Virus record (IMG/VR): IMGVR_UViG_3300040047_000001
Span: 1 to 57,084 of that record
Strand: one strand, 5' to 3'
Source: a virus
Taxonomy: Duplodnaviria > Caudoviricetes
DNA: 57,084 nt
Shown: one piece after another, positions 20,069 through 54,146 of the stretch
Position numbering within the stretch: position 1 is the stretch's first letter
How the letters are laid out: each line of letters starts with the position of its first letter
Made by a program: the position numbers and the translations under genes
The notes under the pieces: generated by a model
Databases searched by the model: none
Told to the model about the DNA's origin: nothing
The model's input: only the letters and a program-made list of their open reading frames with translations

Positions 20069-20117
20069 TGGCGTAGCTTTGTTGTTGTAAGGGGAACAAC
20101 AAAACTAGACAAGGGGA
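20069..20117 (+). promoter_or_regulatory. Early-type promoter and conserved leader P1
   Basis: TGGCG-TAGCTT-N5-TTGTAAGG...GACAAGGGGA (20108-20117). Confidence 0.8.
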
Positions 20118-20124
20118 TATCGAA

Positions 20125-20598
20125 ATGACCGCCAACAAGAACCTCGCCGCTCGGATCGCTCTTACCGCCACCGTCGCAGCAGGAACGTTCTTCATCTCCG
20201 CCTCTCACATCATCAGCGTTGCAGAAGAGGCCGGCAACCACGGCGCAGCAGCCTTCGTCTACCCGGTAGCAATCGACGCAGTCATCCTGGTCTCGGTGCT
20301 GACGCTGGTGGCGAAGACCGGAGTCAACAGGATGGCGAAGTGGTACGCGACGCTTGGGCGGACGTTCGGCTTTGCCGCCACGATCTACGCGAACGTAGCG
20401 GCAAGCGGATTCGAGAGCGTCAACAACGCGGTCATCAACCTCATCCCCGCGCTCGCCTTGATCATCACGATGGAGCTCCTGGTCCACGCCGCCCAGGCGA
20501 CCCCCGCGACCCGCGCACGGAAGGCCACTAAGAAGGCGACCGTCACGCCGATCCGGGGCCGTCGCGGCGCCACCACGAAGCACTCGCGGACCGCGTAA
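20125..20598 (+). CDS. DUF2637/SpdA-like membrane protein
   Basis: Four TM helices, YPVAID motif, basic tail. Confidence 0.7.
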   Translation: MTANKNLAARIALTATVAAGTFFISASHIISVAEEAGNHGAAAFVYPVAIDAVILVSVLTLVAKTGVNRMAKWYATLGRTFGFAATIYANVAASGFESVNNAVINLIPALALIITMELLVHAAQATPATRARKATKKATVTPIRGRRGATTKHSRTA

Positions 20599-20607
20599 CG
20601 GCAGGCC

Positions 20608-20644
20608 GGAGGCCCTTCTGCAGAAAACTGCAGAGGGGCCTTCC
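20608..20644 (+). terminator. Hairpin overlapping the next promoter
   Basis: GGAGGCCCTTCTGCAG-AAAA-CTGCAGAGGGGCCTTCC. Confidence 0.7.
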
Positions 20645-20658
20645 GTTTGGTGAGCAAC

Positions 20659-20704
20659 TGGCGTAGGATGACCTTGAACAACAAACTAGATACCGACAAG
20701 GGGA
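20659..20704 (+). promoter_or_regulatory. Promoter and conserved leader P2
   Basis: TGGCG-TAGGAT...GACAAGGGGA (20695-20704). Confidence 0.78.
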
Positions 20705-20711
20705 GATCGAG

Positions 20712-21452
20712 ATGTTCAAGCACCCGATGTGCGGCGGCAAGCACGAGACCACTTCCGAGGCTCGCGCTTGTGAGCAGATGGCTCGTGAGCAGATGGCCCG
20801 TTCCGATGCTCGTGCAGAGGGCAGCGCGGACCCTGGGATGGAGAGCAACTGGAGCAGCGCGGACCGCGAGCGCGCCCAAGAGCAGCACGAGTACGACTTC
20901 CAGGATCGTGTTATCGGCACCCCGGATGCAGACCGCTGGAGCAGCGCGGACCGCGAGCGCGCCCAGTTCATGGCCGACCGTGACCGGCGTCCGGTCGACC
21001 GTAGCCAGAACCTTCCGTCGGACGTTCAGGCGCAGGCTCGCCGTGACGCGTACGGCCGTCCGGCCCGTACGGCGACCCTTCCGGCCGTCGTCACCGAGGA
21101 TGGGATATACCTCTCCCCGCTCGGCGAAATCTTCAAGGTCGTCTTCAACAAGGCATCCGGCTCCGGCCGTCGCCTCTACGCCAAGAAGCTCGTGATCTGG
21201 GACGACAACGTCCCCTACTCCGCAGACCTCCTCACCCTGCCTGCCCAGACGGCCACCGGCTCGCGCATGGAGTGGGCCTACACGCCCGGAGCGATGCGCG
21301 AGATCCGCCCGGACTGGAAGATGAACGCTGCCGATGCCGAGCGCTTCGGGAAGCTGTACGGCCGGTGCTTCAAGTGCCACCGGGTGCTGACGAAGGAAGA
21401 GAGCATCGCTCGCTCGATGGGCGACACCTGTGCCGGCAAGCAGGGCTTCTAG
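20712..21452 (+). CDS. DUF6011-like zinc-finger protein
   Basis: C-terminal GRCFKCHRVLT..ESIARSMGDTCA. Confidence 0.75.
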   Translation: MFKHPMCGGKHETTSEARACEQMAREQMARSDARAEGSADPGMESNWSSADRERAQEQHEYDFQDRVIGTPDADRWSSADRERAQFMADRDRRPVDRSQNLPSDVQAQARRDAYGRPARTATLPAVVTEDGIYLSPLGEIFKVVFNKASGSGRRLYAKKLVIWDDNVPYSADLLTLPAQTATGSRMEWAYTPGAMREIRPDWKMNAADAERFGKLYGRCFKCHRVLTKEESIARSMGDTCAGKQGF

Positions 21453-21458
21453 CCCACG

Positions 21459-21493: not shown

Positions 21494-21509
21494 CGTTCGG
21501 GACTGGTGC

Positions 21510-21559
21510 TGGCGTAGGGTAACTGGTGTAAGGCTTCTCCAAAAAACTAGACAAGGGGA
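21510..21559 (+). promoter_or_regulatory. Promoter and conserved leader P3
   Basis: TGGCG-TAGGGT-N6-TGTAAGG...GACAAGGGGA (21550-21559). Confidence 0.8.
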
Positions 21560-21564: not shown

Positions 21565-22554
21565 ATGAACGACCTCGCAGGCACCATGCGCCGGATCTCG
21601 GGCCTGATCGCAAAGGCGGAGAGCACCGAGTTTCCGGAGGAGGCAACCAGCCTCCGCGCGAAGGCTGAAGAGCTGATGGCGCGCTACCGGATCGAAGAGG
21701 AGGAGCTGATCAGCAGCTCCACCGCCGTCACCATCGCGCCGGTTACTCGCAATGTCCCGCTCACGACTCACCAGTCGCAGTTCCGCAACGAGCACGTTTG
21801 GCTCTGGGCCGCTATCGCTCGGCACTGCGGAATCCGGTATCACGCAACCTACCTCGTTGAGGACAATGAGTATGTATACGTGGCAATGGCAGTCGGCTAC
21901 GACATCGATATCCGGCTCGCCGAGATGCTCTACTCCTCCGCTCGCCTAGTCTTTGGCGCGAACCTGGAGCCCGAAGTCAACCCAAATGAGACGGACGCCC
22001 AGAACATCTACCGGCTCCGCTCGGCAGGGATCGACCGCCAGACGATCGCTGAGCGCGTCTTTGGGCGGAAGGGACATGCGGAGGGCCTGAAGGTTGGCCA
22101 GCTCTACCGTGAGGAGTGCGCGCGGCGCGGCGAAGCGCCGAAGGTTACTGGGCGGAACGTCAACGCGAAGACCTACCGTGAGGCATACGCGCAGGAGTTC
22201 GTCACGGCCTTCAGTAGTCGCCTCCGGGTCGCTCGCGACGCAGCCGATGCTGCGGTGGGTGCCCTGGTGTCCGTAGGGCGGGCTGAGCGTGTTGAGGAGG
22301 CGTTCTATACGCTGTTCCCGGCATACCGACCCCTGCCGCAGCCCGAGGTCGCAGAAGACAAGACAGCCAAGCCTCGCAAAGAGCGTGGCATGACGAAAGC
22401 GGATCTGGCCCGGGTGAACCGTATGTACTTCGGCCCGGCTGCCCAGCTCGCTCGCGGCGCTGCCCGGCAGGCTGCCGAGCACGTGGAGCTTGGGCGCCCG
22501 ACTCCTGCGAAGCGCACCGGCTCGGCGCCCCGGGCGGGTGAGCTGGAGAGGTAG
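21565..22554 (+). CDS. DUF2786-domain protein
   Basis: RRISGLIAKAEST-FPEEA...KAEELMARYRI is the DUF2786 signature. Confidence 0.85.
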   Translation: MNDLAGTMRRISGLIAKAESTEFPEEATSLRAKAEELMARYRIEEEELISSSTAVTIAPVTRNVPLTTHQSQFRNEHVWLWAAIARHCGIRYHATYLVEDNEYVYVAMAVGYDIDIRLAEMLYSSARLVFGANLEPEVNPNETDAQNIYRLRSAGIDRQTIAERVFGRKGHAEGLKVGQLYREECARRGEAPKVTGRNVNAKTYREAYAQEFVTAFSSRLRVARDAADAAVGALVSVGRAERVEEAFYTLFPAYRPLPQPEVAEDKTAKPRKERGMTKADLARVNRMYFGPAAQLARGAARQAAEHVELGRPTPAKRTGSAPRAGELER

Positions 22555-22617: not shown

Positions 22618-22648
22618 CATCCTAGGAGGCTAGGTAGGTTTGCAAAAA
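22618..22648. repeat. CATCCTAGG-box upstream element, copy 2
   Basis: CATCCTAGGAGGCTAGGTAGGTTTGCAAAAA. Confidence 0.8.
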
Positions 22649-22692: not shown

Positions 22693-22739
22693 TGGCGTAG
22701 GATGGTTCTTGTAAGGCGATAGCGAAAACGACAAGGGGA
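22693..22739 (+). promoter_or_regulatory. Promoter and conserved leader P4
   Basis: TGGCG-TAGGAT-N5-TTGTAAGG...GACAAGGGGA (22730-22739). Confidence 0.8.
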
Positions 22740-23390: not shown

Positions 23391-23431
23391 CATCCTAGCC
23401 TCCTAGGATGCTTTGCAAAAATGTCAAGATT
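23391..23431. repeat. CATCCTAG inverted-repeat box plus TGCAAAAATGTCAAGATT
   Basis: CATCCTAG-CCTC-CTAGGATG; inverted copy of the 22618 box. Confidence 0.75.
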
Positions 23432-23480: not shown

Positions 23481-24101
23481 GTGACGAAATACGAGATCCG
23501 ATGCCCCGGCTCCTTCCGCTCTGGAGTAGCCTTCCTGGATCTGGAGACCGTGAAAGTTCCGGCTCCTGAGGATTACCGGATGCCCTCCGGCGAGGCGCTG
23601 CGGAACCGTTGGTCTGTCGCGCTAGCAGGCGTGGCCCGCGACGGCTCGATCTCGATTGTGGACCCTGCTGGGGATGAAGCGCTGGGGCTGGAGGAGCTGG
23701 CTGAACTGCTCGCGGGAGCAGAGTCCGTCGCCTACGGTGCGACGCGCGAGTTTGACGAGATGATCTGCCGGGGCCGCTTTACGAACGCCCGGCGCGCTCA
23801 CCTTCCAGTTCCGACCTTCCCCGCAGTTCCGGGAGCAGAGGCGCTGTCCTGGAGGAACGTCGGTGTGGCGAAGTCTTATGGCGACGAGATCCGTGGTGAC
23901 GACATCCTCTCGCGAGAGGTGCCGCGCGGACTCTACGATGGCCGTAGGGACGCCGTTATGGTTCATCTGCTCCGCGACGTTGCGGAGCTGATACTGCGCG
24001 ACGGCGAGCCAGACGAAGCTTGCCGCGATTGGTGCGAGTGGGTCCTGGTGAACTTCGACTTCGCGCTCCTGGCGCTCCAACGGGTCGGCGCAGCATCCTA
24101 G
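23481..24101 (+). CDS. Putative RNase H-fold 3'-5' exonuclease-like protein
   Basis: AFLDLET (Exo I-like), REFD and HLLRDV (Exo III-like); GTG 6 nt after a TAGGGT -10. Confidence 0.5.
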   Translation: MTKYEIRCPGSFRSGVAFLDLETVKVPAPEDYRMPSGEALRNRWSVALAGVARDGSISIVDPAGDEALGLEELAELLAGAESVAYGATREFDEMICRGRFTNARRAHLPVPTFPAVPGAEALSWRNVGVAKSYGDEIRGDDILSREVPRGLYDGRRDAVMVHLLRDVAELILRDGEPDEACRDWCEWVLVNFDFALLALQRVGAAS

Positions 24102-24127
24102 GATGATCTGTAAAAAGTGTCAAGATT
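24094..24127. repeat. CATCCTAGGATG palindrome plus TGTAAAAAGTGTCAAGATT
   Basis: Perfect 12-bp palindrome; downstream segment shared with 23414-23431. Confidence 0.75.
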
Positions 24128-24159: not shown

Positions 24160-24202
24160 TGGCGTAGAGTAATTGTTGTAAGGCGAGGCGACGACAAGGG
24201 GA
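24160..24202 (+). promoter_or_regulatory. Promoter and conserved leader P6
   Basis: TGGCG-TAGAGT-N5-TTGTAAGG...GACAAGGGGA (24193-24202). Confidence 0.8.
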
Positions 24203-24209: not shown

Positions 24210-24452
24210 ATGCCGAAGATCGAGATGCTGAACGACGAAGGCAACGTGACCGAAGTTGTGTTGGATGTTCATCGTTGCGTCGGCGATTCGACCGAATGCG
24301 AGCCGGACGGCGCGATGTGCGAAGATTGCGGCCGTTATGCGACGGCTGAAACTCCAGTCTATGTTTGGACCACGCGCCTGCTTGCCAGACTGACCTACTT
24401 CGCCTGCAGTCGCTGCCTCGCGGCCGACGCCTATGCCCGCCTGATCAACTAG
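24210..24452 (+). CDS. Small zinc-finger protein
   Basis: CEDC...CSRC; conserved leader. Confidence 0.75.
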   Translation: MPKIEMLNDEGNVTEVVLDVHRCVGDSTECEPDGAMCEDCGRYATAETPVYVWTTRLLARLTYFACSRCLAADAYARLIN

Positions 24453-24468
24453 ACAAGGGGAGCGCGAG

Positions 24469-25593
24469 ATGACCACCACCGTTCGCAAGGGGGCCGGACG
24501 TCCGGCTGCGACCGAAAAATCCAACCGGCACGCGCAGCGCACCCCGCTTCCGCCGAAGGCCGGAGCCGTTCAGGATGCGAAAGACGTCATCACCGAAGTC
24601 GTCGAAAAGAACCAGACGATCGGCGCCGAGATGGCGAGCCGGAAGCCTCAGGCGAAGCGCAACGCGCAGGATCGGCGCCTGGCGGCTGGTGCGATTCGCG
24701 AGGCGCCCGTGGAGGAGCTGCCGAGCGCGAAATACGGGATGATGACGGTCGTGGAGCTTCGGAAGATCGCGGGCGGGCTGCTGGTGAAGGGCGCTCGCTC
24801 GATGAAGAAGGGTGATCTGCTCACCGCCATCTTAGAGGCAGAGACTGCAGCCGCCAAGGCGCAGACGCCGGAACGCGTAGTGCGGGCAGAGGCGAAGGTG
24901 ACCCAGGCACTCACGAAGGACACGAAGGCTGCTGCGATCGATGCCGCGTTCGACGCCTTCCACGCGTTCGGCTCACCGCAGGACGCGGAAGTGACGAAGG
25001 AGCTGGCACAGGACACCACCTCGAAGAGCGGCGCGAAGGCGCAGACTTTCCTCGCCGAGGCGGCCCGGCTCGGCTGGGACTCCAGCGGCTACGACATCCG
25101 TCCCGGGGACCGCGCCAGCTTGACCGTGAAGCGGGGAAGCGAGTCGATCGATATCGAGTGGCTCGCCGGAGTCTTCCAGGGGGACACGTGCTACTACCAC
25201 CACGTCGGGCGGACCGCCATCAAGCTCCGGAACGCCAGCGCAGCGAAGATGCGGATGGCCATCCCGCCCGCTCAAGCTGACCAGGAGGCCCAGAAAGTGA
25301 CTGCACACAAGTCGGTCCGCCCAAAAGCAGGAAAGGCGCCTAGCACCATGCGTAGCCTGCCGTTCACCGAAGCCTCGCTGGACCAGGAGGTGCTGGACGC
25401 ACTCTACGGGAAGGAGATCACCTGGACCAACCGCATCTCGGGTGAGCCGCAGACTGAGCGCGTGCCTGGGCTCGCCCGGAAGCCGAGCCATGCACCCCGC
25501 ATCAGCGATGGGCCGGACGGCCGCGTGATCAACTTCGTAGGCTCTGCTGGCTTCACCACCGTACTGCTGTCCCAGATCACACGAGTTCGCTAG
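24469..25593 (+). CDS. Hypothetical protein with Rho-N/HeH-like nucleic-acid-binding motif
   Basis: MTVVELRKIA...ARSMKKGDLLTAIL; leader GACAAGGGGAGCGCGAGATG identical to that of the previous gene. Confidence 0.75.
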   Translation: MTTTVRKGAGRPAATEKSNRHAQRTPLPPKAGAVQDAKDVITEVVEKNQTIGAEMASRKPQAKRNAQDRRLAAGAIREAPVEELPSAKYGMMTVVELRKIAGGLLVKGARSMKKGDLLTAILEAETAAAKAQTPERVVRAEAKVTQALTKDTKAAAIDAAFDAFHAFGSPQDAEVTKELAQDTTSKSGAKAQTFLAEAARLGWDSSGYDIRPGDRASLTVKRGSESIDIEWLAGVFQGDTCYYHHVGRTAIKLRNASAAKMRMAIPPAQADQEAQKVTAHKSVRPKAGKAPSTMRSLPFTEASLDQEVLDALYGKEITWTNRISGEPQTERVPGLARKPSHAPRISDGPDGRVINFVGSAGFTTVLLSQITRVR

Positions 25594-26164: not shown

Positions 26165-26209
26165 TGGAGTAACGTCTTTGTTGTAAGGCAAATTCAGACG
26201 ACAAGGGGA
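26165..26209 (+). promoter_or_regulatory. Promoter and conserved leader P7
   Basis: TGGAG-TAACGT-N5-TTGTAAGG...GACAAGGGGA (26200-26209). Confidence 0.75.
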
Positions 26210-26216: not shown

Positions 26217-26549
26217 ATGATCGCCAAGGTCTCACGTCGCACCGCCTCCGGTGAAGACAAGCGCGGCAACTCGAAGGATCGCGCAGCCCGGAAGAACTGG
26301 ATGCTGAAGACGTGGGGCGACGGCGAGAAGTGCGACTGCGTTCACTGCGGCGAGCTCCTCAGCTATGAGACTGTGCAGGCCGATCGCATCGCTCCCGGTG
26401 GCACCTACCGCCGATCGAACGTTCAGCCCTCGTGCGCTCGCTGCAACCGCCGTCGCTCCAACAACACCGCATGGATCAGCCCGTTGATGGCCCGCCTCGC
26501 GAAGTCGGCGAACGCGACGGCCGCAGATCTCAAGGAGCAGGGGAAGTAA
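26217..26549 (+). CDS. HNH endonuclease
   Basis: CVHC...ADRIAPGGTY..SNVQPSCARCN. Confidence 0.85.
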   Translation: MIAKVSRRTASGEDKRGNSKDRAARKNWMLKTWGDGEKCDCVHCGELLSYETVQADRIAPGGTYRRSNVQPSCARCNRRRSNNTAWISPLMARLAKSANATAADLKEQGK

Positions 26550-26773
26550 TGGCTGGAGAATGGCACGACATGCGGACCGACGCTGAGCGACTGAAGGAGC
26601 TGTACGAACGTCTCGACACCGTCTGGGGCGGGCTTAACGACGGCATCCCGACGACGGACTCGCAGGACCACCTCTCGCAGGAGTTCCTGGCGCTGCTGGA
26701 TGACCTTGCGCGCGGCGCGCAGTCGAGTGATATGTGGGCTGTCGTGGCTCATTGGGCCGGAGAAAGGGCGTAG
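26549..26773 (+). CDS. Hypothetical protein
   Basis: TAATG coupling; 3' part of ORF 26432-26773. Confidence 0.6.
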   Translation: MAGEWHDMRTDAERLKELYERLDTVWGGLNDGIPTTDSQDHLSQEFLALLDDLARGAQSSDMWAVVAHWAGERA

Positions 26774-26775
26774 CC

Positions 26776-28833
26776 ATGGAAGCGCTCGCGGAGAAGGTGG
26801 GGAACCGTATCCACATCAAGTCGCGCACGCCGATCCGCGCGCTCGCGAAGCACGTACCGGGAGCCAATTTCTCCGATCGGGCGCAAGCGTGGACAGCACC
26901 GCTTTCGATGGACGTCTGCCGGAACCTGCGGCAGCACTTCGGTGCTGGACTTCGCGTGGGTACGCAGCTCAGCTCGTGGGCGCGACGTGAGATCGCCAAG
27001 GAGCAGTCACAGGCTTTGCTTGGGCGGACTATGACGGGGGTGTCACTCCCTCGCGTCTCTGCCGTCGCACCCGCTCTCTGGGGAGTGCTGTCTAGCCGCC
27101 CTTACCAAGCCTCTGCAGCCCGCTTTATCGCTGAGGGTAGGCAAGTACTGGTTGCGGATACTCCTGGGCTAGGGAAGACTACAGAGGCGATTGCAGGGAT
27201 CGTAGAGTCCGGCGTACCCGGCCCATACCTCATCGTGGCGCCGAAGACGGCCCTCCCGACATGGGAGCGCGAGATCCGGATGCGGCTCGGAGCAGATGCT
27301 AACCCGGTAGTCGTCACCGGCTCGCGCCCGGAGCGGAACGCCATCCTGAGCCGCGTGCTCCATAGCTACAGCCTGGAGAACGTCTGGGTCATCATCAATA
27401 TCGAGATGGTGCGGACGAAGTCCTTCTGGGTCTGTCCCGAGTGCAACGAAGAGTGGAGAGCCAGCGATCATCCGAAGTCCAATATTGTGGACTGCGGCCA
27501 TGACGCGCGACGCGTCCGGACGCGGCACGATCACGAGTACCCAGAGCTGTTCGACTTCGGCTGGGGCGCGCTGATCGCCGACGAGTGCCAGCGCTCGCTC
27601 ATCCGCACCTCGGGGACACCGACCCAGACCCGAGCGGGCATGAAGATGCTCCAGAGCGCGGCAAACGGGCTGCGGATCGCCTTGTCTGGCACGCCGATGC
27701 GAGGGAAGCCGCAGCGCCTCTGGGGCGTGCTGAACTGGCTGGACGAGACGCGTAACAAGGGCTTCTGGAGCTGGCTGGAGCGGTACTGGATCGTCACGCA
27801 GGAGGGCTACGCCGGAGCACGCACCATCGGGGACTTCCGCGAGGATCGGGCGGACGCCTTCCACCGCTCGCTGGATCGGATGATGATTCGGCGGACGAAG
27901 GCTGAAGTCTCGCCCGACCTTCCGCCCAAGGCGTACATGGGTTCCGCGCTCGATCCGGCCGACCCGAAGTCACCTGTGGCTGTCTGGCTGCCGCTGACGC
28001 CGGAGCAGGAGCGCGCATATGCCCAGATGATCGCAAGCGGATCGGCGGAGATTGAGGGTGGAGACGTCAACGCGGTCGGCATCCTCGCTGAGCTGACCCG
28101 CATGAAGCAGTTTGCCTCGTGCTATATGAAGGTGGAGGAGAAGACCCAGCGCATCACGGGCGCTCGCGAAGCAGTACGACGGCAGAACGCTGCGAGGCAA
28201 GGGCAGTCGCTGCCGGCTGTGTTGGAAGAGCAGGTCAAACTAGCCGTTCCAGGGCTGCCCTCCAACAAGCTGGACTGGATCGAGCAGTTCCTGTTGGACC
28301 GCAACATATTGGACAGCGATGAGCTACCGACTACGAAAGTCGTTATCGTTTCGCAGTTCACCGAGATCCTAGGTCTCTTCGCGAACGCGTTGCAGGGCAA
28401 GTACTCCGGGTTTCGTTACGCAGCAGTGACCGGCAAGGTCACCGGGCGGAAGCGCCAGGAGAACATCGACAGCTTCAACGATATGGACTCAGGCGTCCAT
28501 GTCATGTTCCTCAATACGATTGCGGGTGGCGTCGCGGTAACGCTCGATGCTGCGGACGACATGATCATCATTGACGAGACCCATATCCCAGACGATCAGG
28601 AGCAGGTAGAGGACCGTATCAACAACAGACGTCCAGAGGAAAAGGTGCTGCAGCGTTGCTACTGGTACCTCAAATCCCTTGGGACGATTGACGAAGGGAT
28701 TGCCCGGACGAACTACGAACGCGACAGAGACCAGAAGCGCCACTTGGATGACCGACGTGGCGTACCGTACCTGCGAGCCGTCTACGCCACACTAGAAGAT
28801 GTTCACAACCGCAAGAAGAAGGGAAGAGAATGA
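26776..28833 (+). CDS. SNF2-family (SF2) DNA helicase
   Basis: RPYQ, DTPGLGKT, IADECQ, LSGTP, MIRRTK, QVEDRI motifs. Confidence 0.92.
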   Translation: MEALAEKVGNRIHIKSRTPIRALAKHVPGANFSDRAQAWTAPLSMDVCRNLRQHFGAGLRVGTQLSSWARREIAKEQSQALLGRTMTGVSLPRVSAVAPALWGVLSSRPYQASAARFIAEGRQVLVADTPGLGKTTEAIAGIVESGVPGPYLIVAPKTALPTWEREIRMRLGADANPVVVTGSRPERNAILSRVLHSYSLENVWVIINIEMVRTKSFWVCPECNEEWRASDHPKSNIVDCGHDARRVRTRHDHEYPELFDFGWGALIADECQRSLIRTSGTPTQTRAGMKMLQSAANGLRIALSGTPMRGKPQRLWGVLNWLDETRNKGFWSWLERYWIVTQEGYAGARTIGDFREDRADAFHRSLDRMMIRRTKAEVSPDLPPKAYMGSALDPADPKSPVAVWLPLTPEQERAYAQMIASGSAEIEGGDVNAVGILAELTRMKQFASCYMKVEEKTQRITGAREAVRRQNAARQGQSLPAVLEEQVKLAVPGLPSNKLDWIEQFLLDRNILDSDELPTTKVVIVSQFTEILGLFANALQGKYSGFRYAAVTGKVTGRKRQENIDSFNDMDSGVHVMFLNTIAGGVAVTLDAADDMIIIDETHIPDDQEQVEDRINNRRPEEKVLQRCYWYLKSLGTIDEGIARTNYERDRDQKRHLDDRRGVPYLRAVYATLEDVHNRKKKGRE

Positions 28834-30207: not shown

Positions 30208-30243
30208 GGGTGGGGAGTCGGACGGACGACCGACTCCCCACCC
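30208..30243 (+). terminator. Perfect 14-bp stem-loop (terminator or RNA-stabilising hairpin)
   Basis: GGGTGGGGAGTCGG / CCGACTCCCCACCC; no U-tract. Confidence 0.6.
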
Positions 30244-30253
30244 ATCCCCTCGC

Positions 30254-30322
30254 GCAGAGCAGAGGTTGCCGGTGGCTAATTCAACTTCCCCTTGTCGACG
30301 CTACCGGCAGCCCCTACCCTGC
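30254..30322 (+). ncRNA. Candidate antisense hairpin RNA 1 (loop complementary to the GACAAGGGGA leaders)
   Basis: Stem 30261-30276 / 30300-30315 with two G-U pairs, 23-nt loop TAATTCAACTTCCCCTTGTCGAC. Confidence 0.55.
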
Positions 30323-30347
30323 ACGAAGGAACCCAAGGAGGTCAGTT

Positions 30348-35675: not shown

Positions 35676-35771
35676 GTCAACCCCTAGACCCATCCCGGAG
35701 AAGGCGGTAGTCTGAGATCCTTTCATCCGGATGTTTTACAGAAGGCAACATAATGACAGGGGATCGGCGCG

Positions 35772-38451: not shown

Positions 38452-41400
38452 AGTTTGTCAGCCTCCACCACCACTCCACCTACTCCTTCATGGATGGGTT
38501 CGGCTCTCCGGCTGCGCATGTGGAGCGCGCGGCGGAGCTAGGAATGGGAGCGCTCGCGCTCACCGAGCACGGCAACGTATCGTCGCACGTCCAGCTGGAG
38601 AAGGCCGCAAACAAGGCCGGCATCAAACCCATCTTTGGCCTGGAGGCATACACAGCGCTTGGCCCGGCCGAACGCCGCAAGTTCCACATGACGATCCTCG
38701 CCATGAATGAGACGGGATACCAGAACCTTATGGCGATCGTCGGCCGCAGCTACGCGGAAGGGTTCTACCAATGGCCAACGGTGAGCGGACGGATGCTCGC
38801 GGATCACCACGAAGGTCTTATCGTGACTTCGGGTTGTTCAGACTCGCTCCTTGCGTGCTCTCTGCTGGGCGGGAAGAGTATTGCGGTCGAGGATGCATCC
38901 TACGACCGAGCGAAGCGCACGGCGCTAGGGTTCAAGCGTCTACTGGGGGATCGGTACTACCTGGAGACGCAGATGTTTCCGGAATTGGAACGGACCCGAA
39001 CGATCAACGAGGCATACGAGAGGCTGAGCGGTGAGACTGGAATCCCCCTGGTTTCGACTGCTGATGTTCACTACCCACAAGCCGACGACAACGAGATGCA
39101 GGTCATCTTGCATGCGGCAGGTCGTGGTGCGGGGAGCGTGGCGGCTCAGGAGGCTGGATGGGAGTACAGCATCCGTCTCACTCACCCTATCTCTGACCGC
39201 GTGGCGCTCGATCGAGCGATGGGCACTGGTCTCAGCAAAAAGGCTGCAATCCAATCACTCCGAACAACCGACGACATTTCGGCTCGCTGCTCGGTGGTCC
39301 TACCGAAGGCCGAACGCCTCCGGTATCCGCTTGATGAAGGGGTCGCGACGGGGCTCGATCTAATCTGGAAGTGGCTGCGCGAGGGTTGGGCCTATCGAGT
39401 CCGTCAGGGCAACCGGCACATGGTAGCGCGGCAGGCAGAGTATGTCCGGCAGCTGAAGCATGAGATGGATCTCATTGCGTCCAAGGACTTCATCGACTAC
39501 TTCCTCATGACCTCGGACATCATCACCTACGCAAAGGAGCACGGCTGCGCGGTCGGGCCGGGCCGTGGATCGTCGGCTGCCTCGCTCGTGTGCTACCTAC
39601 TCCGCATCACAGAGGTCGATCCGCTCCAGCATCCGCTGATGCTCTTCGAGCGCTTCATCGCACCCGACCGCGACGACATCCCAGACATTGACACAGACTT
39701 CGATGACGAACGACGGCCGATCGTCCGGGAGTATGCCGTCCGGAAGTACGGCGAGAACCGTGTTGGCAATATCGCCAACTACACGAAGTACCGGGGAAAG
39801 TCGGCCCTTAAGGACGTCGGTCGTGTGTTCCCGCGAATCCCCAAGTACGCCATTGATACTGCTGCGGCGATGGTGATCGAGCGCTCGGGCGGAGACTCCC
39901 GGGCGGATGCCGGACTGATGGACACCGTCGAGATGTTCCCAGCGGTGAAGGCCATCTTCGACAAGTACCCTGACCTTTGGAAGGCGACCCGTCTGGAGGG
40001 GAACTACCGGGGCATGTCAGTCCATGCTGCCGGCCTGGTGATCGCGAATACCCCGATCCACGAGATCTGCGCGCTCTACACGCGCGAGCGGATCGATAAG
40101 GATACCAAGGAAAAGACTGCCGTAACGGTGGTCTCTGTTAACAAGAAAGATGCCGCCTATCTCGGGCTGATGAAAGCGGACTTCCTTGGACTCTCCACGA
40201 TGGGGTTGATCCGGATAGCGCTTGAGCTTGCGGGCCTGACCTTGGAGCAGTTGTACGCGCTCCCACTAGACCTTCCGGAAGTCGTTGAAGCCTTTACCCG
40301 CAACGATGTTATCGGCATCTTCCAGTTCGAAGGCCGCGCGACCCGCATCATCAACCGCGAGGTGAAGCCAACCAACTTCGGCGAGATCGTTGATATCAAT
40401 GGACTCTCGCGACCCGGCCCGCTCTTCTCCGGAACGACGGCAGACTACATCGACATCAAGCACGGCAAGAAGCAGCCCGAACTACTCCACCCGCTCTGGG
40501 ACCGCATCACGCAGTCGACCAAGGGGCAGGTGATCTATCAGGAGCAAGTTCTGGCTGCCCTCAAGGAGATCGGCAAGATCCCGGTTACCAGAGTCGGCGA
40601 GATCCGCCGCATCATATCCCAGAAACTCGGCGAGGCGCAGTTCAACGAGAGCGCAGGCGACTTCGTGCTAGGCGCAGCAGAGCACGGTATCTCCAAAGAA
40701 GACGCGATGCACATGTGGGGCCGTCTGGTGACGTCTGCCACGTACTCATTCGTGTATGCCCACGCAGCCTCATACGCCATCATCGGCTACTGGTCGATGT
40801 GGCTGAAGACGCACCACCCGGTCGCGTTCTACACGGCCGCGCTGCGGAAGTCGGAGAAGGAGCATTGGCCAGCGCTCATCAAAGATGCCTCGCGGCACGG
40901 CGTGGAGGTGCGCGGGATCGACCCGCCGGTCTCAGGGAGGGACTGGGAGCCGGACGGCCGGGGCGGCATCGTTGCCGGTTGGCTCCAGGTGCCGGGGATC
41001 GGCGGAGCGAAGGCAAAGGCTGTGATGGAGTACCGCGACACCGTCCATGGTTTGGGCACAGACTATGAAATGGAGCTGGAAGACCTGATCAACGTCAACG
41101 GCATCGGTCCGAAGATCATGGCCGAGATCGCTGCCGTAGACCAGACCGACCCGTTCGGTCTGCTGAAGATCGAGCAGACTCTCCGTCTGGTGAAGAATGC
41201 GCTCCGTGACGGCGAGATTCCCCTGCCTCCCCCTACCCACAACAGTGAAGAGATCCTAGACGCAAGACCTGCAGCACGCGTAGTCTTCATAGGCTTGGTG
41301 CGGCTGAAGGAGTACAAAGACTTCATCGAGGATGAGCGAGCCCGAACGGGCGATGATCTGGAGGCAATCAAAGCACGGATGAAGGACCCGCACCTGCCGA

Positions 41401-41615
41401 CCGGCTGTGTGCTGCACTGCTACGATGATGCCGACGAAGACGTCTACGTACGGGTACACCGAAAGTTCTACCCAAGGTTCAAGCGGGATCTGGAGGCAAT
41501 CATCCCGCACGAGTCTGTGATCGTCGCGGTCGGCAAGAAGTCTCGCAACAGCTTCGGTGCGAGCGTCTACGTTGACAAACTGTACTACCTGAGTCAGGAG
41601 ACGAGTGATGAATGA
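38448..41615 (+). CDS. dnaE: DNA polymerase III alpha subunit (family C)
   Basis: PHP domain (LHHHSTYS..DG, TEHG, DVHY), GPGRGS, PDIDTDF, HAAG, KADFLGL, YQEQ. Confidence 0.97.
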   Translation: MKFVSLHHHSTYSFMDGFGSPAAHVERAAELGMGALALTEHGNVSSHVQLEKAANKAGIKPIFGLEAYTALGPAERRKFHMTILAMNETGYQNLMAIVGRSYAEGFYQWPTVSGRMLADHHEGLIVTSGCSDSLLACSLLGGKSIAVEDASYDRAKRTALGFKRLLGDRYYLETQMFPELERTRTINEAYERLSGETGIPLVSTADVHYPQADDNEMQVILHAAGRGAGSVAAQEAGWEYSIRLTHPISDRVALDRAMGTGLSKKAAIQSLRTTDDISARCSVVLPKAERLRYPLDEGVATGLDLIWKWLREGWAYRVRQGNRHMVARQAEYVRQLKHEMDLIASKDFIDYFLMTSDIITYAKEHGCAVGPGRGSSAASLVCYLLRITEVDPLQHPLMLFERFIAPDRDDIPDIDTDFDDERRPIVREYAVRKYGENRVGNIANYTKYRGKSALKDVGRVFPRIPKYAIDTAAAMVIERSGGDSRADAGLMDTVEMFPAVKAIFDKYPDLWKATRLEGNYRGMSVHAAGLVIANTPIHEICALYTRERIDKDTKEKTAVTVVSVNKKDAAYLGLMKADFLGLSTMGLIRIALELAGLTLEQLYALPLDLPEVVEAFTRNDVIGIFQFEGRATRIINREVKPTNFGEIVDINGLSRPGPLFSGTTADYIDIKHGKKQPELLHPLWDRITQSTKGQVIYQEQVLAALKEIGKIPVTRVGEIRRIISQKLGEAQFNESAGDFVLGAAEHGISKEDAMHMWGRLVTSATYSFVYAHAASYAIIGYWSMWLKTHHPVAFYTAALRKSEKEHWPALIKDASRHGVEVRGIDPPVSGRDWEPDGRGGIVAGWLQVPGIGGAKAKAVMEYRDTVHGLGTDYEMELEDLINVNGIGPKIMAEIAAVDQTDPFGLLKIEQTLRLVKNALRDGEIPLPPPTHNSEEILDARPAARVVFIGLVRLKEYKDFIEDERARTGDDLEAIKARMKDPHLPTGCVLHCYDDADEDVYVRVHRKFYPRFKRDLEAIIPHESVIVAVGKKSRNSFGASVYVDKLYYLSQETSDE

Positions 41616-51583: not shown

Positions 51584-51620
51584 TGGAGCACCAGCTAATC
51601 AAGACCGACAAGGGGATCGA

Positions 51621-51905
51621 ATGCCGGATGCCGTGCTGCCCGATGATGGTGATTCGCCCGCTCGGGCAGAAGTCGATGCCGAGGTGGCAGAGTCGATCCG
51701 CGTGGAGATCACCACTCCGCTCGCTTCGATCGTTCTGGAGGGGTCTGGTGTCACTGCTGATTCGGCTTACTGGCTATGGCGTCGAGTCGCTCGTGAGGCG
51801 ATCGCGCTAGCTCCACAGCCGGACAGTCTGCCGCGTATGGAAGCCAACGCGGCAGGCTTCATCATCGAGCATGCCGACCAGCTACCCGGAGGCTTCGCAA
51901 CATGA
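51621..51905 (+). CDS. Hypothetical protein preceded by the conserved leader
   Basis: CCGACAAGGGGATCGA-ATG; stop overlaps the next ATG. Confidence 0.55.
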   Translation: MPDAVLPDDGDSPARAEVDAEVAESIRVEITTPLASIVLEGSGVTADSAYWLWRRVAREAIALAPQPDSLPRMEANAAGFIIEHADQLPGGFAT

Positions 51906-52072
51906 GCAGGAAGCAGCACGGCGTTCCGAACCATAAGCGCTGCAAGCTATGCGGTCGTACTCGTGGTCTCGTGATCTACTCCAACAGCCCGAAGACGCTC
52001 GGTGTCATGTTCGCGCCTGGCATCGCGCTCTGTCCGCATTGCGACTTCGTGGGGACAGGTATTCGGTCATGA
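51902..52072 (+). CDS. 56-aa zinc-ribbon protein
   Basis: CKLC...CPHC; GGAGG SD; ATGA overlaps at both ends; not in the ORF track. Confidence 0.65.
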   Translation: MSRKQHGVPNHKRCKLCGRTRGLVIYSNSPKTLGVMFAPGIALCPHCDFVGTGIRS

Positions 52073-53667
52073 CTCTGACGGCCGTCACCGAGCTGGAGTT
52101 GGAGCGCGAGTGGCGAGACGCGCTTGGCTGGCGGCCGCATGCGATCCAACGCGAGATCCTGGAAGACCGGACGCGCTTCCAGGTACTGGCCGCCGGACGG
52201 CGCTTCGGGAAGTCGCAGACGGGCGGGCACAAGCTGCTCCCGAAAGCGTTCTCTGCCTATGCCGAGAAGCCGACACTGGACGCGAACGGACAGCAGCGCC
52301 GGTACTGGATCGTCGGCCCGGAGTACTCCGATGCTGAGAAGGAGTTCCGGGTACTGTACAACGGCCTGAAGCGTCTGGACGTTCCGTTCGATCGCCCAGG
52401 GACCTACAACAACCCCAACAATGGCGATATGCACATCTCGCTGTGGGATGGCGCGTTCATGGTGGATGCGCTTTCCGCGAAGTACCCGGAGACGCTGGTT
52501 GGTGAAGGACTCTCGGGTGTGGTGCTTTCTGAGGCTGCCAAGCTCAAGGAGTCGGCGTGGACGAAGTACATTCGCCCGACGCTCGCCGACTTCAAGGGGT
52601 GGATGTATGCGGGCTCCACACCCGAAGGCCGGAACTGGTTCTACCGGGCTTGGGAGGCGGGGCAGGATCCACTTCGCCGGGAGTGGAAGAGCTGGCGCGC
52701 TCCCGCGTGGGCCAACCCGTACGTGTACCGCGAGATGGGTGTAGCCGGTGCGGAAGCCGACGCAGCAGTCCGACTGCTCCAGACACTCGTCCGGAAGCGG
52801 ATGCTGCCAGAGCGGTTGCCGATCGACTCCGGCGCTCGCTGGCTCATTACCGATGAGCAATGGGCCAAAGCGACCGACAAGACCTGGGAGAAGGTCGGCA
52901 GGGCGCTCGGACTGGACCCCGAGATCGTGGCGCTCGCGCTCGATCTGTCGGAAGAAGTCTTCAACCAAGAAGAGGCAGCCCTCTTCAATGAGTTCGTGGG
53001 TCGCGTCTTCAAGGAGTTCGATGAAGAGATCCATGTAGCCGACCTGAAGTACGATCCAGCTTGGAAGACGTACGCCGCGCTGGACTATGGATTCACCAAC
53101 CCATTCGTCTGGCTGCTGATCCAGGTCGATCCGTTCAACACCAACATCCGGATCCTGGATGAGTACTATGAGCGGGGGCGGACGACTCGCGAGGCAGCAG
53201 CCGAGATTCAGAGTCGCGGACTCGCACCAACCAGCATCTTGGAGTTCTACCCGGATCCCGCTGAGCCAGACCGCTCCCGCGAGCTGTCGGGCCTGCTTCA
53301 GCTTCGGCCTGCCGGCGGAACGGGCGGATTGATCGCGGATCGGCTAGAGTGGATCCGGCGAAAGCTGAAGCCCGACCCCAAGATAGCACACCTCAACACG
53401 AGTCATGAGGAATGGGTCCCACAGCTACAGATCAACAGACGTTGCAAGGAGACCATTCGTGAGTTCAACGTCTACCGCTACCCGAAGACGGCGGAAGAGG
53501 CAGCAGCCCGGAACCAGGAAGCGCCAGAAGCTCCGCTCAAGAAGGACGACCACACTCCGGAAGCGCTCGGGCGATTCATGATCGGACACTTTGGCTCGCC
53601 GTGGGTGGATCTGTCTCCGCCGCGCCAGAGCCGGGCACGGGTCGGTCGGCGAGGGGCTGCAAGGTAG
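52069..53667 (+). CDS. terL: Terminase large subunit
   Basis: PHAIQ, AGRRFGKS, VVLSEAA, STPEG, LDYG, KDDHTPEAL. Confidence 0.95.
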   Translation: MTLTAVTELELEREWRDALGWRPHAIQREILEDRTRFQVLAAGRRFGKSQTGGHKLLPKAFSAYAEKPTLDANGQQRRYWIVGPEYSDAEKEFRVLYNGLKRLDVPFDRPGTYNNPNNGDMHISLWDGAFMVDALSAKYPETLVGEGLSGVVLSEAAKLKESAWTKYIRPTLADFKGWMYAGSTPEGRNWFYRAWEAGQDPLRREWKSWRAPAWANPYVYREMGVAGAEADAAVRLLQTLVRKRMLPERLPIDSGARWLITDEQWAKATDKTWEKVGRALGLDPEIVALALDLSEEVFNQEEAALFNEFVGRVFKEFDEEIHVADLKYDPAWKTYAALDYGFTNPFVWLLIQVDPFNTNIRILDEYYERGRTTREAAAEIQSRGLAPTSILEFYPDPAEPDRSRELSGLLQLRPAGGTGGLIADRLEWIRRKLKPDPKIAHLNTSHEEWVPQLQINRRCKETIREFNVYRYPKTAEEAAARNQEAPEAPLKKDDHTPEALGRFMIGHFGSPWVDLSPPRQSRARVGRRGAAR

Positions 53668-53708
53668 GCTTACCCCTGCGATCGCGAACCATCTTCGAAG
53701 GAGCCTCT

Positions 53709-54059
53709 ATGTCCGTTCAGGCAACAACCGTTCTGGCGAGCTCTGCCCGGACGACTTCGGGTAACTCCACCACCGTGACTGTGCCCGACTGGTCGCCAGC
53801 CGATCCGCGCTCGGTTTCCGTCTACCAGAACGTCACCGCCCAGTCCGGCACCACGCCGACACTCGACATGCAGGTGCAGTGGTCGCCGGACGGCACCACG
53901 TGGTACTCCGCGTCCGATACCTTCACACAGGTGGCTGCCGCGACGGGCACGGCCGTCAAGCAGTTCGCCGTCAAGGCGCCGTACTGGCGGCTGAGCTACA
54001 CGATCGCCGGTACCACCCCCAGCTACACCTTCGACGTCAAGGCCGTGTACCAGGCTTAG
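53709..54059 (+). CDS. Small beta-rich protein, probably virion-associated
   Basis: AAGGAG SD; QWSPDGTTWY...APYWRLSY; between terL and portal. Confidence 0.7.
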   Translation: MSVQATTVLASSARTTSGNSTTVTVPDWSPADPRSVSVYQNVTAQSGTTPTLDMQVQWSPDGTTWYSASDTFTQVAAATGTAVKQFAVKAPYWRLSYTIAGTTPSYTFDVKAVYQA

Positions 54060-54070
54060 ACTCCAAAGAC

Positions 54071-54146
54071 GACTCCCTCGCCCACGGTTGACCACCGCAC
54101 TTCATCCCCTTGTCGGCGGGCAGGTCCTGGGGCGAGGGAGTCTTTT
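54071..54146 (+). ncRNA. Candidate antisense hairpin RNA 2 / terminator with anti-leader loop
   Basis: 13-bp outer stem GACTCCCTCGCCC / GGGCGAGGGAGTC plus TTTT; inner GACC/GGTC and CCGC/GCGG; apical loop ACTTCATCCCCTTGTCG. Confidence 0.55.

What the first reader, a model, noticed from the sequence alone, without database searches (positions are those of the whole stretch)
20108..54146. Candidate phage-encoded antisense system: one shared RBS motif on an early regulon and two hairpin RNAs displaying its complement
Seen: GACAAGGGGA lies just upstream of starts at 20108, 20695, 21550, 22730, 24193, 24452, 26200 and 51607. I found its exact reverse complement TCCCCTTGTC only twice by eye (30287-30296 and 54105-54114). 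Both copies are intergenic, on the transcribed strand, and in the unpaired apical loop of a long hairpin. The two stems are unrelated in sequence, while the loops share ACTTC and TCCCCTTGTCG. A given 10-mer is expected about 0.05 times per 57 kb strand at equal base frequencies. Established: loop-displayed anti-SD seeds are how many bacterial sRNAs block translation initiation. Inference: middle and late transcripts carry or release RNAs that shut down translation of the whole early gene set, which would give an RNA-based temporal switch in a phage with no visible repressor or sigma factor. I know of no description of this arrangement.
Basis: partly seen in the sequence, partly recalled or inferred. 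Interest (0 to 1): 0.92.

Follow-up and report, generated by a model that had tools for sequence, protein, structure and literature searches.

The report
Phage start-site tag with mirror-image hairpins
An uncultured actinobacterial phage puts the same ten-letter ribosome-landing tag in front of eight genes and shows the tag's exact mirror in the open tips of two RNA hairpins; tag and mirror change together in related phages, so they probably pair as RNA.

Summary
GACAAGGGGA occurs 8 times on the gene strand, each 4-10 nt before an ATG. Its reverse complement occurs twice, both times intergenic and in the apical loop of a strong hairpin (shuffles expect 0.1 copies in all).

The tag is not new. 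It is a Start-Associated Sequence (SAS), described in 2011 for Cluster K mycobacteriophages and in 2020 for Cluster EF Microbacterium phages, and its role was still called unknown in 2024-25. The 2011 paper noted, without interpreting it, one opposite-orientation copy.

New here:
- Hairpin 1 is syntenic in 8 of 8 sub-clade relatives.
- Its loop co-varies with the SAS through three variants: GACAAGGGGA/TCCCCTTGTC, GAGAAGGGGA/TCCCCTTCTC and GAGATGGGGA/TCCCCATCTC. The stems are unrelated in sequence.
- More distant lineages carry other tags with their own mirror loops.

This argues strongly for RNA-RNA pairing. Repression of SAS-gene translation is the likeliest outcome but is unproven, because no RNA data exist.

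Counter-examples:
- Several SAS phages have no mirror copy (Karate, five IMG/VR records).
- In Cluster K5/K6-type phages the loop drifted without the SAS changing.

Earlier AI notes of this scan report the same layout on other DNA. Verdict: first reading partly supported; a new variant of a known kind; interest 0.8.

The parts
20108..20117 (+). SAS copy 1 (GACAAGGGGA), 7 nt before the ATG of ORF 20125-20598 (DUF2637)
20695..20704 (+). SAS copy 2, 7 nt before the ATG of ORF 20712-21452 (DUF6011)
21550..21559 (+). SAS copy 3, 5 nt before the ATG of ORF 21565-22554 (DUF2786)
22730..22739 (+). SAS copy 4. ATGs follow at 22741 (1 nt spacing) and 22750 (10 nt spacing, the likelier start). The ORF runs to 23328.
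24193..24202 (+). SAS copy 5, 7 nt before the ATG of ORF 24210-24452
24452..24461 (+). SAS copy 6, 7 nt before the ATG of ORF 24469-25593 (Rho_N domain). It has no ESAS-like element upstream.
26200..26209 (+). SAS copy 7, 7 nt before the ATG of ORF 26217-26549 (weak HNH match)
51607..51616 (+). SAS copy 8, 4 nt before the ATG of the 94-aa ORF 51621-51905, directly upstream of the large terminase gene 51949-53667. It is the best predicted partner of hairpin 2.
35755..35763 (+). Near-cognate SAS (GACAGGGGA, one base deleted), 8 nt before the ATG of ORF 35772-36302
20069..20079 (+). ESAS-like, promoter-like element TGG[CA]GTA[GA]NNT (a -10-type TANNNT). Further copies at 20659, 21510, 22693, 24160 and 26165 lie 27-40 nt upstream of SAS copies 1, 2, 3, 4, 5 and 7. 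Extra copies at 23522 and 49503 have no exact SAS.
   Evidence: (family D5)
30208..30243 (+). Perfect 14-bp GC-rich hairpin with no U-tract, directly upstream of hairpin 1 (terminator-like or processing structure)
30251..30325 (+). Hairpin 1. The main 13-bp stem is 30264-30276 paired with 30300-30312. The 23-nt apical region carries the anti-SAS TCCCCTTGTC at 30287-30296. The hairpin ends about 22 nt before the AAGGAGG SD of the GTG at 30348. Its position between the orf29601 homologue and the exonuclease operon is conserved in 6 of 6 relatives examined.
54064..54147 (+). Hairpin 2. It has a long stem (54071-54083 with its partner arm), an apical anti-SAS TCCCCTTGTC at 54105-54114, and a UUUU tract at 54143-54146, giving the shape of an intrinsic terminator. 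It lies between ORF 53601-54059 and the portal gene 54172-55785.

Best explanation
GACAAGGGGA is this phage's Start-Associated Sequence: a private, extended Shine-Dalgarno tag on a set of mostly early, individually promoted genes. The two hairpins are transcribed on the same strand as the genes. Each presents the tag's exact complement (anti-SAS) in an accessible apical loop. Hairpin 1 sits at the head of the exonuclease/recombination-replication operon. Hairpin 2 is a terminator-shaped structure after the terminase region.

Shown: the sequence anatomy, the folds, and the co-variation.

Inferred: the loops pair in trans with SAS leaders (10-13 bp, covering the SD). This pairing occludes ribosome binding and/or triggers cleavage, so that SAS-tagged mRNAs are damped once hairpin-bearing transcripts or their stable processing products accumulate. 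The result would be an RNA-level brake or timer on the tagged gene set. I put the pairing itself at about 0.85. The repressive sign and the timing are much less certain; the confidence given here (0.55) is for the whole statement including repression.
For: 1. Exact counts: 8 forward and 2 reverse copies against 0.1 expected.

2. Both reverse copies lie at hairpin apices (z about -5). Opening the hairpin 1 loop costs only about 2 kcal/mol.

3. Co-variation at a syntenic hairpin 1.0-1.45 kb past the helicase, found in 8 of 8 sub-clade members that cover the spot:
- WIN, L110, L112 and L113/L114 carry TCCCCTTGTC with SAS GACAAGGGGA (x8, x4, leaders not held for L112, x12/x5).
- L111 carries CCCCCTTGTC (9 of 10).
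- L009 carries TCCCCTTCTC with SAS GAGAAGGGGA x5.
- L116 carries TCCCCATCTC with SAS GAGATGGGGA x9.
The stems are unrelated in sequence.

4. More distant lineages have other tags with their own mirror in a hairpin apex. GAAGGGACC gives whole-record forward/reverse counts of 7/1, 7/1, 13/2, 13/1, 9/2 and 10/1. GAGAGGAAC (L085/L092) and GAAACGGAC (L096) do the same.

5. Objective apex test: own-RC hits sit at a hairpin apex in 9 of 16 cases, against 11 of 111 swapped-motif hits and 144 of 1500 random positions.

6. Predicted net interaction energies:

| Partner | Hairpin 1 | Hairpin 2 |
|---|---|---|
| 8 SAS sites | -5 to -16 kcal/mol | -2 to -15.5 kcal/mol |
| 107 control start regions, median | +4.0 | +5.7 |
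| Best control | -11.8 | -7.4 |

7. The two loop variants match the two SAS sub-classes: GGGGAG x5 with CUUCCCC, and GGGGAU x3 with AUCCCC.

8. An independent system shows the same layout. In Cluster K1 mycobacteriophages Anaya, Adephagia and Shaobing the lone opposite-orientation SAS lies in a hairpin loop in the gap where published RNA-seq text places the start of late transcription.
Against: - No RNA evidence exists: no RNA run was listed, and transcript ends, abundance and timing are unknown.
- Neither hairpin has a recognisable promoter of its own.
- SAS occurs without any mirror copy in Microbacterium phage Karate (10 forward, 0 reverse over the whole genome) and in five IMG/VR records (8/0, 9/0, 9/0, 10/0, 8/0). 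So the hairpin is not required for SAS function.
- In Cluster K phages Ekdilam, Krueger and Bryler the syntenic loop has drifted to 9/13 complementarity while the SAS stayed GGGATAGGAGCCC (x16-17).
- The crude 9-mer swap control shows only about 4-fold enrichment (13 of 29 loci against 77 of 670 pairs).
- Some distant hairpins do not beat shuffles: L038 z -0.7, L058 -1.2, L020 +0.7, Anaya +0.1.
- Related genomes are not independent. About 3 tag variants in the sub-clade and about 4-5 further lineages carry the signal.
- Conservation of hairpin 2 could not be tested in close relatives.
Confidence: 0.55

Rival explanations
1. The pairing is real but the logic runs the other way, or is not repression. 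Abundant SAS-bearing early mRNAs would act on the hairpins, for example by remodelling a leader or terminator structure so that the downstream operons (exonuclease/replication; portal/head) are read through, processed or stabilised. Alternatively, hairpin 2 could pair in cis with SAS copy 8 of its own transcript.
For: - The hairpins sit at operon boundaries. Hairpin 1 is always between the orf29601 homologue and the exonuclease operon (6 of 6).
- Hairpin 2 has the shape of an intrinsic terminator with a U-tract.
- The many-to-one stoichiometry is 8-13 tags to 1-2 loops.
- Hairpin 2 pairs best with SAS copy 8, 2.5 kb upstream in the same unit (13 contiguous bp, net -15.5 kcal/mol).
- In Adephagia the element lies where late transcription is reported to begin.
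Against: - Loop-only complementarity of 10-13 nt does not reach into the 13-bp or longer GC-rich stems, so melting a terminator is not obviously possible.
- Hairpin 1 and its orthologues lack U-tracts.
- In the GAAGGGACC group the hairpin sits upstream of the early block instead.
Confidence: 0.2
2. The loops are generic anti-SD sequences acting in cis on the RBS of the next gene (AAGGAGG at 30335; GGGAGAGG near 54160), or on SDs in general. Exact complementarity to the SAS would be a by-product.
For: - In the sub-clade the hairpins end 20-45 nt before the next gene's RBS.
- Cluster K5/K6-type loops keep only the CUCC...CCC core.
Against: - The co-varying positions (the third and fifth bases of the tag) lie outside the SD core and track the SAS, not the downstream SD. 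That SD stays AAGGAGG in both WIN and L110.
- The next genes carry no SAS.
- In the GAAGGGACC group the next start lies 160-320 nt away.
Confidence: 0.08
3. The 10-mer is a double-stranded DNA site for a phage DNA-binding protein, used in both orientations. It would act as a roadblock or operator at early genes and in inverted orientation at later promoters. In that case the co-variation reflects protein specificity, not RNA pairing.
For: - Co-variation alone cannot separate RNA pairing from a dsDNA site read in either orientation.
- Pope et al. favoured DNA-binding proteins for the ESAS inverted repeats.
Against: - The forward copies are fixed relative to start codons (4-10 nt) but vary by 22-29 nt relative to the promoter-like element.
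- The reverse copies lie at the apex of hairpins whose stems differ in sequence but are kept as structure, in 9-11 of 16 cases against a background of about 10%. That has no meaning for dsDNA.
Confidence: 0.05
4. Coincidence: the two reverse copies are chance or leftovers of inverted duplications and have no function.
For: - Only two copies exist.
- Some distant 'own-RC' hits are clearly trivial. L054 and L076 are SDs of minus-strand genes, and two L020 hits look coding.
Against: - Shuffles expect 0.1 copies in all.
- Both copies are intergenic and apical.
- The position is conserved, with exact compensatory changes, in 8 of 8 sub-clade members.
Confidence: 0.02

Closest known systems
[quoted passage not shown] 2011, PMC3203893; passages read) and Cluster EF Microbacterium phages (Jacobs-Sera et al. 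2020, PMC7302621; passages read)
   Same: - A 10-13-nt asymmetric motif at the RBS position, a few nt before mostly ATG starts, in one orientation.
- It marks mainly non-structural genes.
- Its conservation reaches beyond the SD core.
- A subset is preceded by a conserved promoter-containing element. The EF ESAS is centred on GTAGAG; here the element is GCGTAGnnT.
- K1 phages have one opposite-orientation copy. I find that copy in a hairpin loop.
   Different: - The motif sequence differs, and there are fewer copies (8 exact here, against 10-19).
- The published work leaves the role unknown (also PMC11373665 of 2024 and PMC12699233 of 2025; passages read). In the passages I read it does not connect the opposite copy to a hairpin or to RNA pairing.
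- Here there are two mirror copies, and the mirror co-varies with the tag across relatives.
- Karate (which I take to be EF-type from its size and layout; the cluster label comes from no call) has no mirror copy.
Trans-acting bacterial sRNAs with C-rich or anti-SD loops that block ribosome binding sites (Staphylococcus RNAIII and RsaE UCCC loops; actinobacterial 6C sRNA). These are recalled from general knowledge and come from no call.
   Same: An unpaired C/U-rich loop (UCCCCU) on a stable hairpin, complementary to the G-rich SD regions of several mRNAs. One hairpin doubles as a terminator, as in 3'UTR-derived sRNAs.
   Different: - No Rfam family matches at gathering threshold.
- The RNA is phage-encoded and aimed at the phage's own, privately tagged genes.
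- The complementarity is longer (10-13 nt) and co-evolves as a lock-and-key pair.
- A discrete small transcript has not been shown.
Phage T4 RegA (translational repressor of early mRNAs) and RegB (endoribonuclease cutting GGAG in early SDs). The review PMC3014915 was seen only in a search listing; the mechanism is recalled.
   Same: Functional analogy: post-transcriptional shut-off of a set of early phage mRNAs through their ribosome-binding sites.
   Different: T4 uses proteins. Here the proposed effector is an RNA loop, and specificity comes from base pairing. There is no homology.
Stoperators of Cluster A mycobacteriophages (13-bp asymmetric repressor sites). They are mentioned in PMC3203893; details are recalled.
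   Same: Many copies of a short asymmetric motif, in one orientation relative to transcription.
   Different: Stoperators are dsDNA repressor sites and are not tied to start-codon spacing. The motif here is locked to start codons, and its mirror copies are in hairpin loops.

Membership tests
Start-Associated Sequence (SAS) as defined by Pope et al. 2011 | Multiple (about 10-19) copies of one conserved asymmetric 13-nt motif per genome | tested here: met
   There are 8 exact copies of a 10-mer plus 1 near-cognate copy, against 0.1 expected by chance. This is fewer and shorter than in Cluster K. Relatives have 4-13 copies.
Start-Associated Sequence (SAS) as defined by Pope et al. 2011 | Located at the RBS position, a few nt (3-9) upstream of the start codon, with ATG preferred | tested here: met
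   Spacings are 7, 7, 5, 10 (or 1), 7, 7, 7 and 4 nt. All 8 starts are ATG.
Start-Associated Sequence (SAS) as defined by Pope et al. 2011 | Contains an SD core, but conservation extends to positions that cannot pair with 16S rRNA | tested here: inconclusive
   The AAGGGGA core is SD-like and the invariant GAC prefix goes beyond it. The host and its 16S 3' end are unknown, so pairing with rRNA could not be evaluated. In a crude ORF set, other genes use GGAG-type SDs.
Start-Associated Sequence (SAS) as defined by Pope et al. 2011 | One orientation, restricted to non-structural genes, with at most a single opposite-orientation copy not at a gene start | tested here: met
   Seven of 8 copies lie in the 20.1-26.5 kb non-structural block and 1 lies before the terminase. 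The two opposite copies are not at gene starts.
Start-Associated Sequence (SAS) as defined by Pope et al. 2011 | A subset is linked to an upstream extended element (ESAS) that contains a promoter | tested here: met
   Six of 8 copies have TGG[CA]GTA[GA]NNT 27-40 nt upstream. Promoter activity was not tested. The simple sigma-70 scan does not call these elements.
Trans-acting base-pairing sRNA that blocks RBSs | Seed lies in an unpaired, accessible region of a stable structure | tested here: met
   The UCCCCU core sits in the apical loop. Fold z-scores are -3.5 to -7.3 with 0 of 200 shuffles as stable across the 8 sub-clade hairpins. Opening the hairpin 1 loop costs about 2 kcal/mol.
Trans-acting base-pairing sRNA that blocks RBSs | Seed and target sites co-vary in related genomes | tested here: met
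   There are three compensated tag/loop variants at one syntenic hairpin, plus other tag/loop pairs in more distant lineages. This is not met in Cluster K5/K6-type phages.
Trans-acting base-pairing sRNA that blocks RBSs | A discrete, expressed small transcript (own promoter and terminator, or processed from a UTR) | not testable with these tools
   No RNA run was listed and no promoter was recognised next to either hairpin.
Trans-acting base-pairing sRNA that blocks RBSs | Belongs to a curated RNA family (for example 6C or RsaE) | tested here: not met
   The Rfam 15 scan of the whole window at gathering thresholds returned 0 matches.
Intrinsic (Rho-independent) terminator | GC-rich hairpin followed directly by a U-tract | tested here: inconclusive
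   Hairpin 2 meets the criterion (UUUU at 54143-54146). Hairpin 1, its orthologues and the upstream hairpin 30208-30243 have no U-tract.

The most novel reading that the evidence does not exclude
Many actinobacterial phages, and from earlier AI notes of this scan perhaps phages of other hosts, run a private RNA lock-and-key system. A phage-specific tag is fused to the Shine-Dalgarno sequence of a chosen gene set. One or two hairpin RNAs carry the tag's mirror in their loop. The hairpin RNA accumulates from operon leaders or 3' ends and switches the tagged genes off together, with no protein regulator involved. Tag and mirror co-evolve, so each phage lineage has its own orthogonal code. This would finally explain what Start-Associated Sequences are for.
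Probability: 0.4. Interest if true: 0.9.

Novelty: new variant of a known kind. Interest (0 to 1): 0.8.

Why it matters
SAS motifs have been an acknowledged puzzle in actinobacteriophage genomics since 2011. Papers from 2024 and 2025 still call their role unknown (passages read). A co-varying complementary hairpin loop gives a concrete, testable candidate for what reads the tag: an RNA, not a protein.

If confirmed, it would be an RNA-only way for a phage to control a whole gene set after transcription, analogous to T4 RegA/RegB but by base pairing. It would also supply naturally orthogonal tag/anti-tag pairs, potentially useful as translational switches in actinobacteria.

The idea can be tested at once in Cluster K1 phages of the laboratory strain M. 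smegmatis mc2 155, for which RNA-seq and phage engineering already exist.

Tried and rejected
Tried, without useful result:
- Megablast of window 20-32 kb against named phages: no match.
- Rfam and tRNA scans of the window: nothing.
- Simple sigma-70 and terminator scan of 19-32 kb: not above shuffles, and it does not call the ESAS-like elements.
- The search for related loci with the helicase alone, or with a 2-sequence alignment: only L009.
- Public RNA runs: 'no RNA holder listed'.
- My first hairpin-apex scoring function was too brittle. It missed known cases and was replaced.
- Unrestricted duplexfold opened whole hairpins and gave meaningless totals. It was replaced by a loop-restricted calculation.
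- The 17-mer leader scan found L315/G014 (8 SAS copies), but that record is a fragment that ends before the helicase, so it says nothing about hairpin 1.
- L111's record is not held, so only its 22-kb locus was examined.
- Conservation of hairpin 2 in close relatives could not be tested. No close relative's held DNA reaches the terminase-portal junction. The second mirror copies in G004 and G006 lie 0.7-2.5 kb after the primase, not at that junction.

Considered and rejected or down-weighted: chance, a dsDNA operator, and cis sequestration of the next SD (see the rivals).

Rows set aside:
- L054 and L076 own-RC hits are SDs of minus-strand genes.
- L020 hits at 10063 and 15171, and L080 at 16002, look coding.
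- L019 at 4800 is not apical.
- Several auto-picked '9-mers' (CGACGACGA, TGGGCGGCA, CGAAGATGA, AAGAAGGCC) are coding repeats rather than SAS. They were kept in the swap control, which makes that control conservative.

Not available or not seen:
- Supplements of papers were closed. Fig S3 of PMC3203893 and Supplementary Table 3 of PMC12699233 may list the opposite-orientation sites. I did not see them.
- The claim 'not in print' rests on searches of the held library only. The ZoeJ paper (Dedrick 2019) was not in the library and was not read.

Full report
**Observation.** Eight are on the + strand and two on the - strand (30287 and 54105, which read TCCCCTTGTC on +). Dinucleotide-preserving shuffles expect 0.10 copies. 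One mismatch adds only two unrelated sites.

The window is a virus record of 57,084 nt with a 134-nt terminal direct repeat, so it is close to a whole genome. Every ORF that matched a protein family lies on the + strand, and nearly all ORFs with coding-like composition do too. Each forward copy lies 4-10 nt before an ATG.

Both reverse copies are intergenic. Each places its UCCCCU core in the apical loop of a hairpin that folds far better than shuffles (z -5.1 and -4.7; 0 of 200 shuffles as stable).

**Gene context**.
- 51621-51905: small ORF carrying SAS copy 8.
- 51949-53667: large terminase.
- Hairpin 2, with a UUUU tail.
- 54172-55785: portal.
- 1798-2913: major head protein.
- 10157-12814: tape measure.
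- 20.1-30.2 kb: a block of about 13 small ORFs (DUF2637, DUF6011, DUF2786, Rho_N, HNH) ending with an SNF2 helicase (26734-28833). Seven of these ORFs carry the tag.
- Hairpin 1.
- Then exonuclease (31132), a Sak4-like protein, DNA polymerase (38448-41615), ThyX, primase and dCTP deaminase.

Six of the eight tags have a conserved TGG[CA]GTA[GA]NNT element 27-40 nt upstream. It contains a -10-like TANNNT.

**What the tag is.** Full-text searches and passages read identify this anatomy as the Start-Associated Sequence.
- It was described for Cluster K mycobacteriophages (GGGATAGGAGCCC; PMC3203893).
- It was described for Cluster EF Microbacterium phages (GGGAAAGGACCCC, with an upstream ESAS centred on GTAGAG; PMC7302621).
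- Its role is still called unknown in PMC11373665 (2024), which shows that ESAS contain SigA-like promoters, and in PMC12699233 (2025).

So the tag is a known kind, and the lone mirror copy was seen before but not interpreted.

**Relatives and co-variation.** I therefore used a 40-sequence helicase alignment to fetch 80 viral loci and 80 metagenome loci.

In the window's sub-clade (52-61% helicase identity) a hairpin sits 1.0-1.45 kb past the helicase. It lies between the orf29601 homologue and the exonuclease operon in 6 of 6 relatives examined. Its loop mirrors that genome's own tag:

| Genome | Hairpin loop | SAS tag (copies) |
|---|---|---|
| WIN | TCCCCTTGTC | GACAAGGGGA (x8) |
| L110 | TCCCCTTGTC | GACAAGGGGA (x4) |
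| L113 / L114 | TCCCCTTGTC | GACAAGGGGA (x12 / x5) |
| L112 | TCCCCTTGTC | leaders not held |
| L111 | CCCCCTTGTC (9 of 10) | gACAAGGGGA (x4) |
| L009 | TCCCCTTCTC | GAGAAGGGGA (x5) |
| L116 | TCCCCATCTC | GAGATGGGGA (x9) |

The stems share no sequence, yet all eight fold with z -3.5 to -7.3. The two changed positions lie outside the SD core.

Further out, other tags have their own mirrors.
- GAAGGGACC(A): whole-record forward/reverse counts are 7/1, 7/1, 13/2, 13/1, 9/2 and 10/1 in G002-G007, with reversed-pattern controls of 0-1. The primary mirror sits at the apex of a hairpin just upstream of the early block.
- GAGAGGAAC (L085/L092) and GAAACGGAC (L096): the mirror is in a hairpin 1-1.5 kb past the helicase.

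**Controls.** Start-associated 9-mers were picked automatically in 29 loci.
- The locus's own mirror is present in 13 of 29 loci, against 77 of 670 swapped motif-locus pairs.
- The sharper criterion is placement. Own mirrors are at a hairpin apex in 9 of 16 cases, and two more miss only the unpaired-base threshold. The comparison values are 11 of 111 swapped hits and 144 of 1500 random positions.
- Trivial own-RC hits were identified: SDs of minus-strand genes in L054 and L076, and coding-like hits in L020 and L080.

**Energetics** (loop-restricted duplex plus opening costs).

| Partner | Hairpin 1 | Hairpin 2 |
|---|---|---|
| 8 SAS leaders | -5.1 to -16.1 kcal/mol | -2.2 to -15.5 kcal/mol |
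| Median of 107 control start regions | +4.0 | +5.7 |
| Best control | -11.8 | -7.4 |

The second-best control for hairpin 1 is the near-cognate tag at 35755. The best partner of hairpin 2 is SAS copy 8, in its own transcription unit. The loops CUUCCCC and AUCCCC fit the GGGGAG (5) and GGGGAU (3) sub-classes of the tag.

**An independent system.**
- In Anaya (JF704106) the single opposite SAS copy (GGCCTCCTATCCC, 59870) is intergenic and in the loop of a hairpin. In a 91-nt context this fold is not better than shuffles (z +0.1).
- The region is conserved in 182 Cluster K records.
- In Adephagia it lies in the gene 92-93 gap. The 2024 paper states that late transcription appears to initiate there.
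- Adephagia and Shaobing keep the 12/13 mirror. Biglebops keeps 11/13.

**Evidence against generality.**
- Ekdilam, Krueger and Bryler keep the same SAS (16-17 copies). Their syntenic loops have drifted (GTCCTCCTTCCCC, GTTCTCCCTTCCC), and no matching forward motif exists.
- Microbacterium phage Karate has 10 SAS copies and no mirror of 9 nt or more anywhere. Its one 8-mer lies in a terminator stem, where chance expects 0.86.
- Five IMG/VR records have 8-10 tags and no mirror.

So the mirror hairpin is an add-on found in some SAS lineages, not a requirement of SAS.

**Interpretation.**
- Apical placement on structure-conserved, sequence-divergent hairpins argues against a dsDNA site.
- Co-variation at non-SD positions, and the absence of the tag on the next gene, argue against simple cis sequestration.
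- I conclude that tag and loop pair as RNA (about 0.85).
- The likeliest consequence is occlusion of the RBS and/or cleavage of tagged mRNAs as hairpin-bearing leaders, or stable 3' fragments, accumulate.
- The reverse logic remains open: early mRNAs acting on boundary hairpins, or 5'-3' pairing within the terminase transcript.
- No RNA run was listed, so expression, transcript ends and timing are unknown.

**Earlier notes of this scan.** After I had formed this reading, a look-up showed that this scan has reported the same layout on other DNA at least eight times. Those are AI notes, and I did not check them beyond my own Cluster K tests. No look-alike stretches of this genome were on record.

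**Verdict.** The tag is a known kind (SAS). The co-evolving mirror hairpin is, as far as my five searches of the held library show, undescribed. It makes an open question directly testable.

Noticed in passing
window 1-134 and 56951-57084: A 134-nt terminal direct repeat (99% identical). The record is probably a complete genome, either with direct terminal repeats or as a circularly permuted assembly.
   Followed up: no
window 5462-6538, inside ORF 4793-6730: At least 8 diverged copies of a 39-44-nt unit, spaced in multiples of 69-72 nt (23-24 aa repeats). They lie in a 645-aa protein with no PHROG match, between the head and tail genes.
   Followed up: no
window 19992-20022, 22618-22648, 23391-23421, 24092-24116: A family of palindromic elements (CATCCTAGG..CTAGG..TTTGCAAAAA) plus a conserved CTGCAGAAAA lie upstream of the ESAS-like elements in the early block. 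They may be terminators or operators between the early cassettes.
   Followed up: partly
window 54105 versus 51607: The hairpin 2 loop is complementary to SAS copy 8 over 13 contiguous bases, extended by further pairs after a one-base interruption. SAS copy 8 lies 2.5 kb upstream in the same terminase unit. This allows possible 5'-3' pairing within one mRNA.
   Followed up: partly
L116 (for example 3041, 5271, 6613, 8604): This relative's tag is embedded in a palindrome, GAGATGGGGATCTC. The leader itself could therefore form a 4-bp mini-hairpin that shows UGGGGA in its loop, giving loop-loop kissing with the UCCCCA hairpin. The GGG...CCC ends of the K and EF SAS would allow the same.
   Followed up: no
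L075 about 9148 (strand opposite to the helicase): The complement of AGAAGGGAAC sits at the apex of a hairpin with about 26 base pairs, in a 65.8-kb record. This may be an anti-SAS in yet another lineage.
   Followed up: no
L190 42040-42200 (Karate record about 56040-56200): Several copies of GATTGTGG-type repeats lie in the non-coding right end of Microbacterium phage Karate.
   Followed up: no
window 26734-28833: The protein collection holds this helicase as a 517-aa product (P0002, 74% of the ORF), while relatives align from residue 13-20 of the 699-aa ORF. The database gene call probably starts too late.
   Followed up: no
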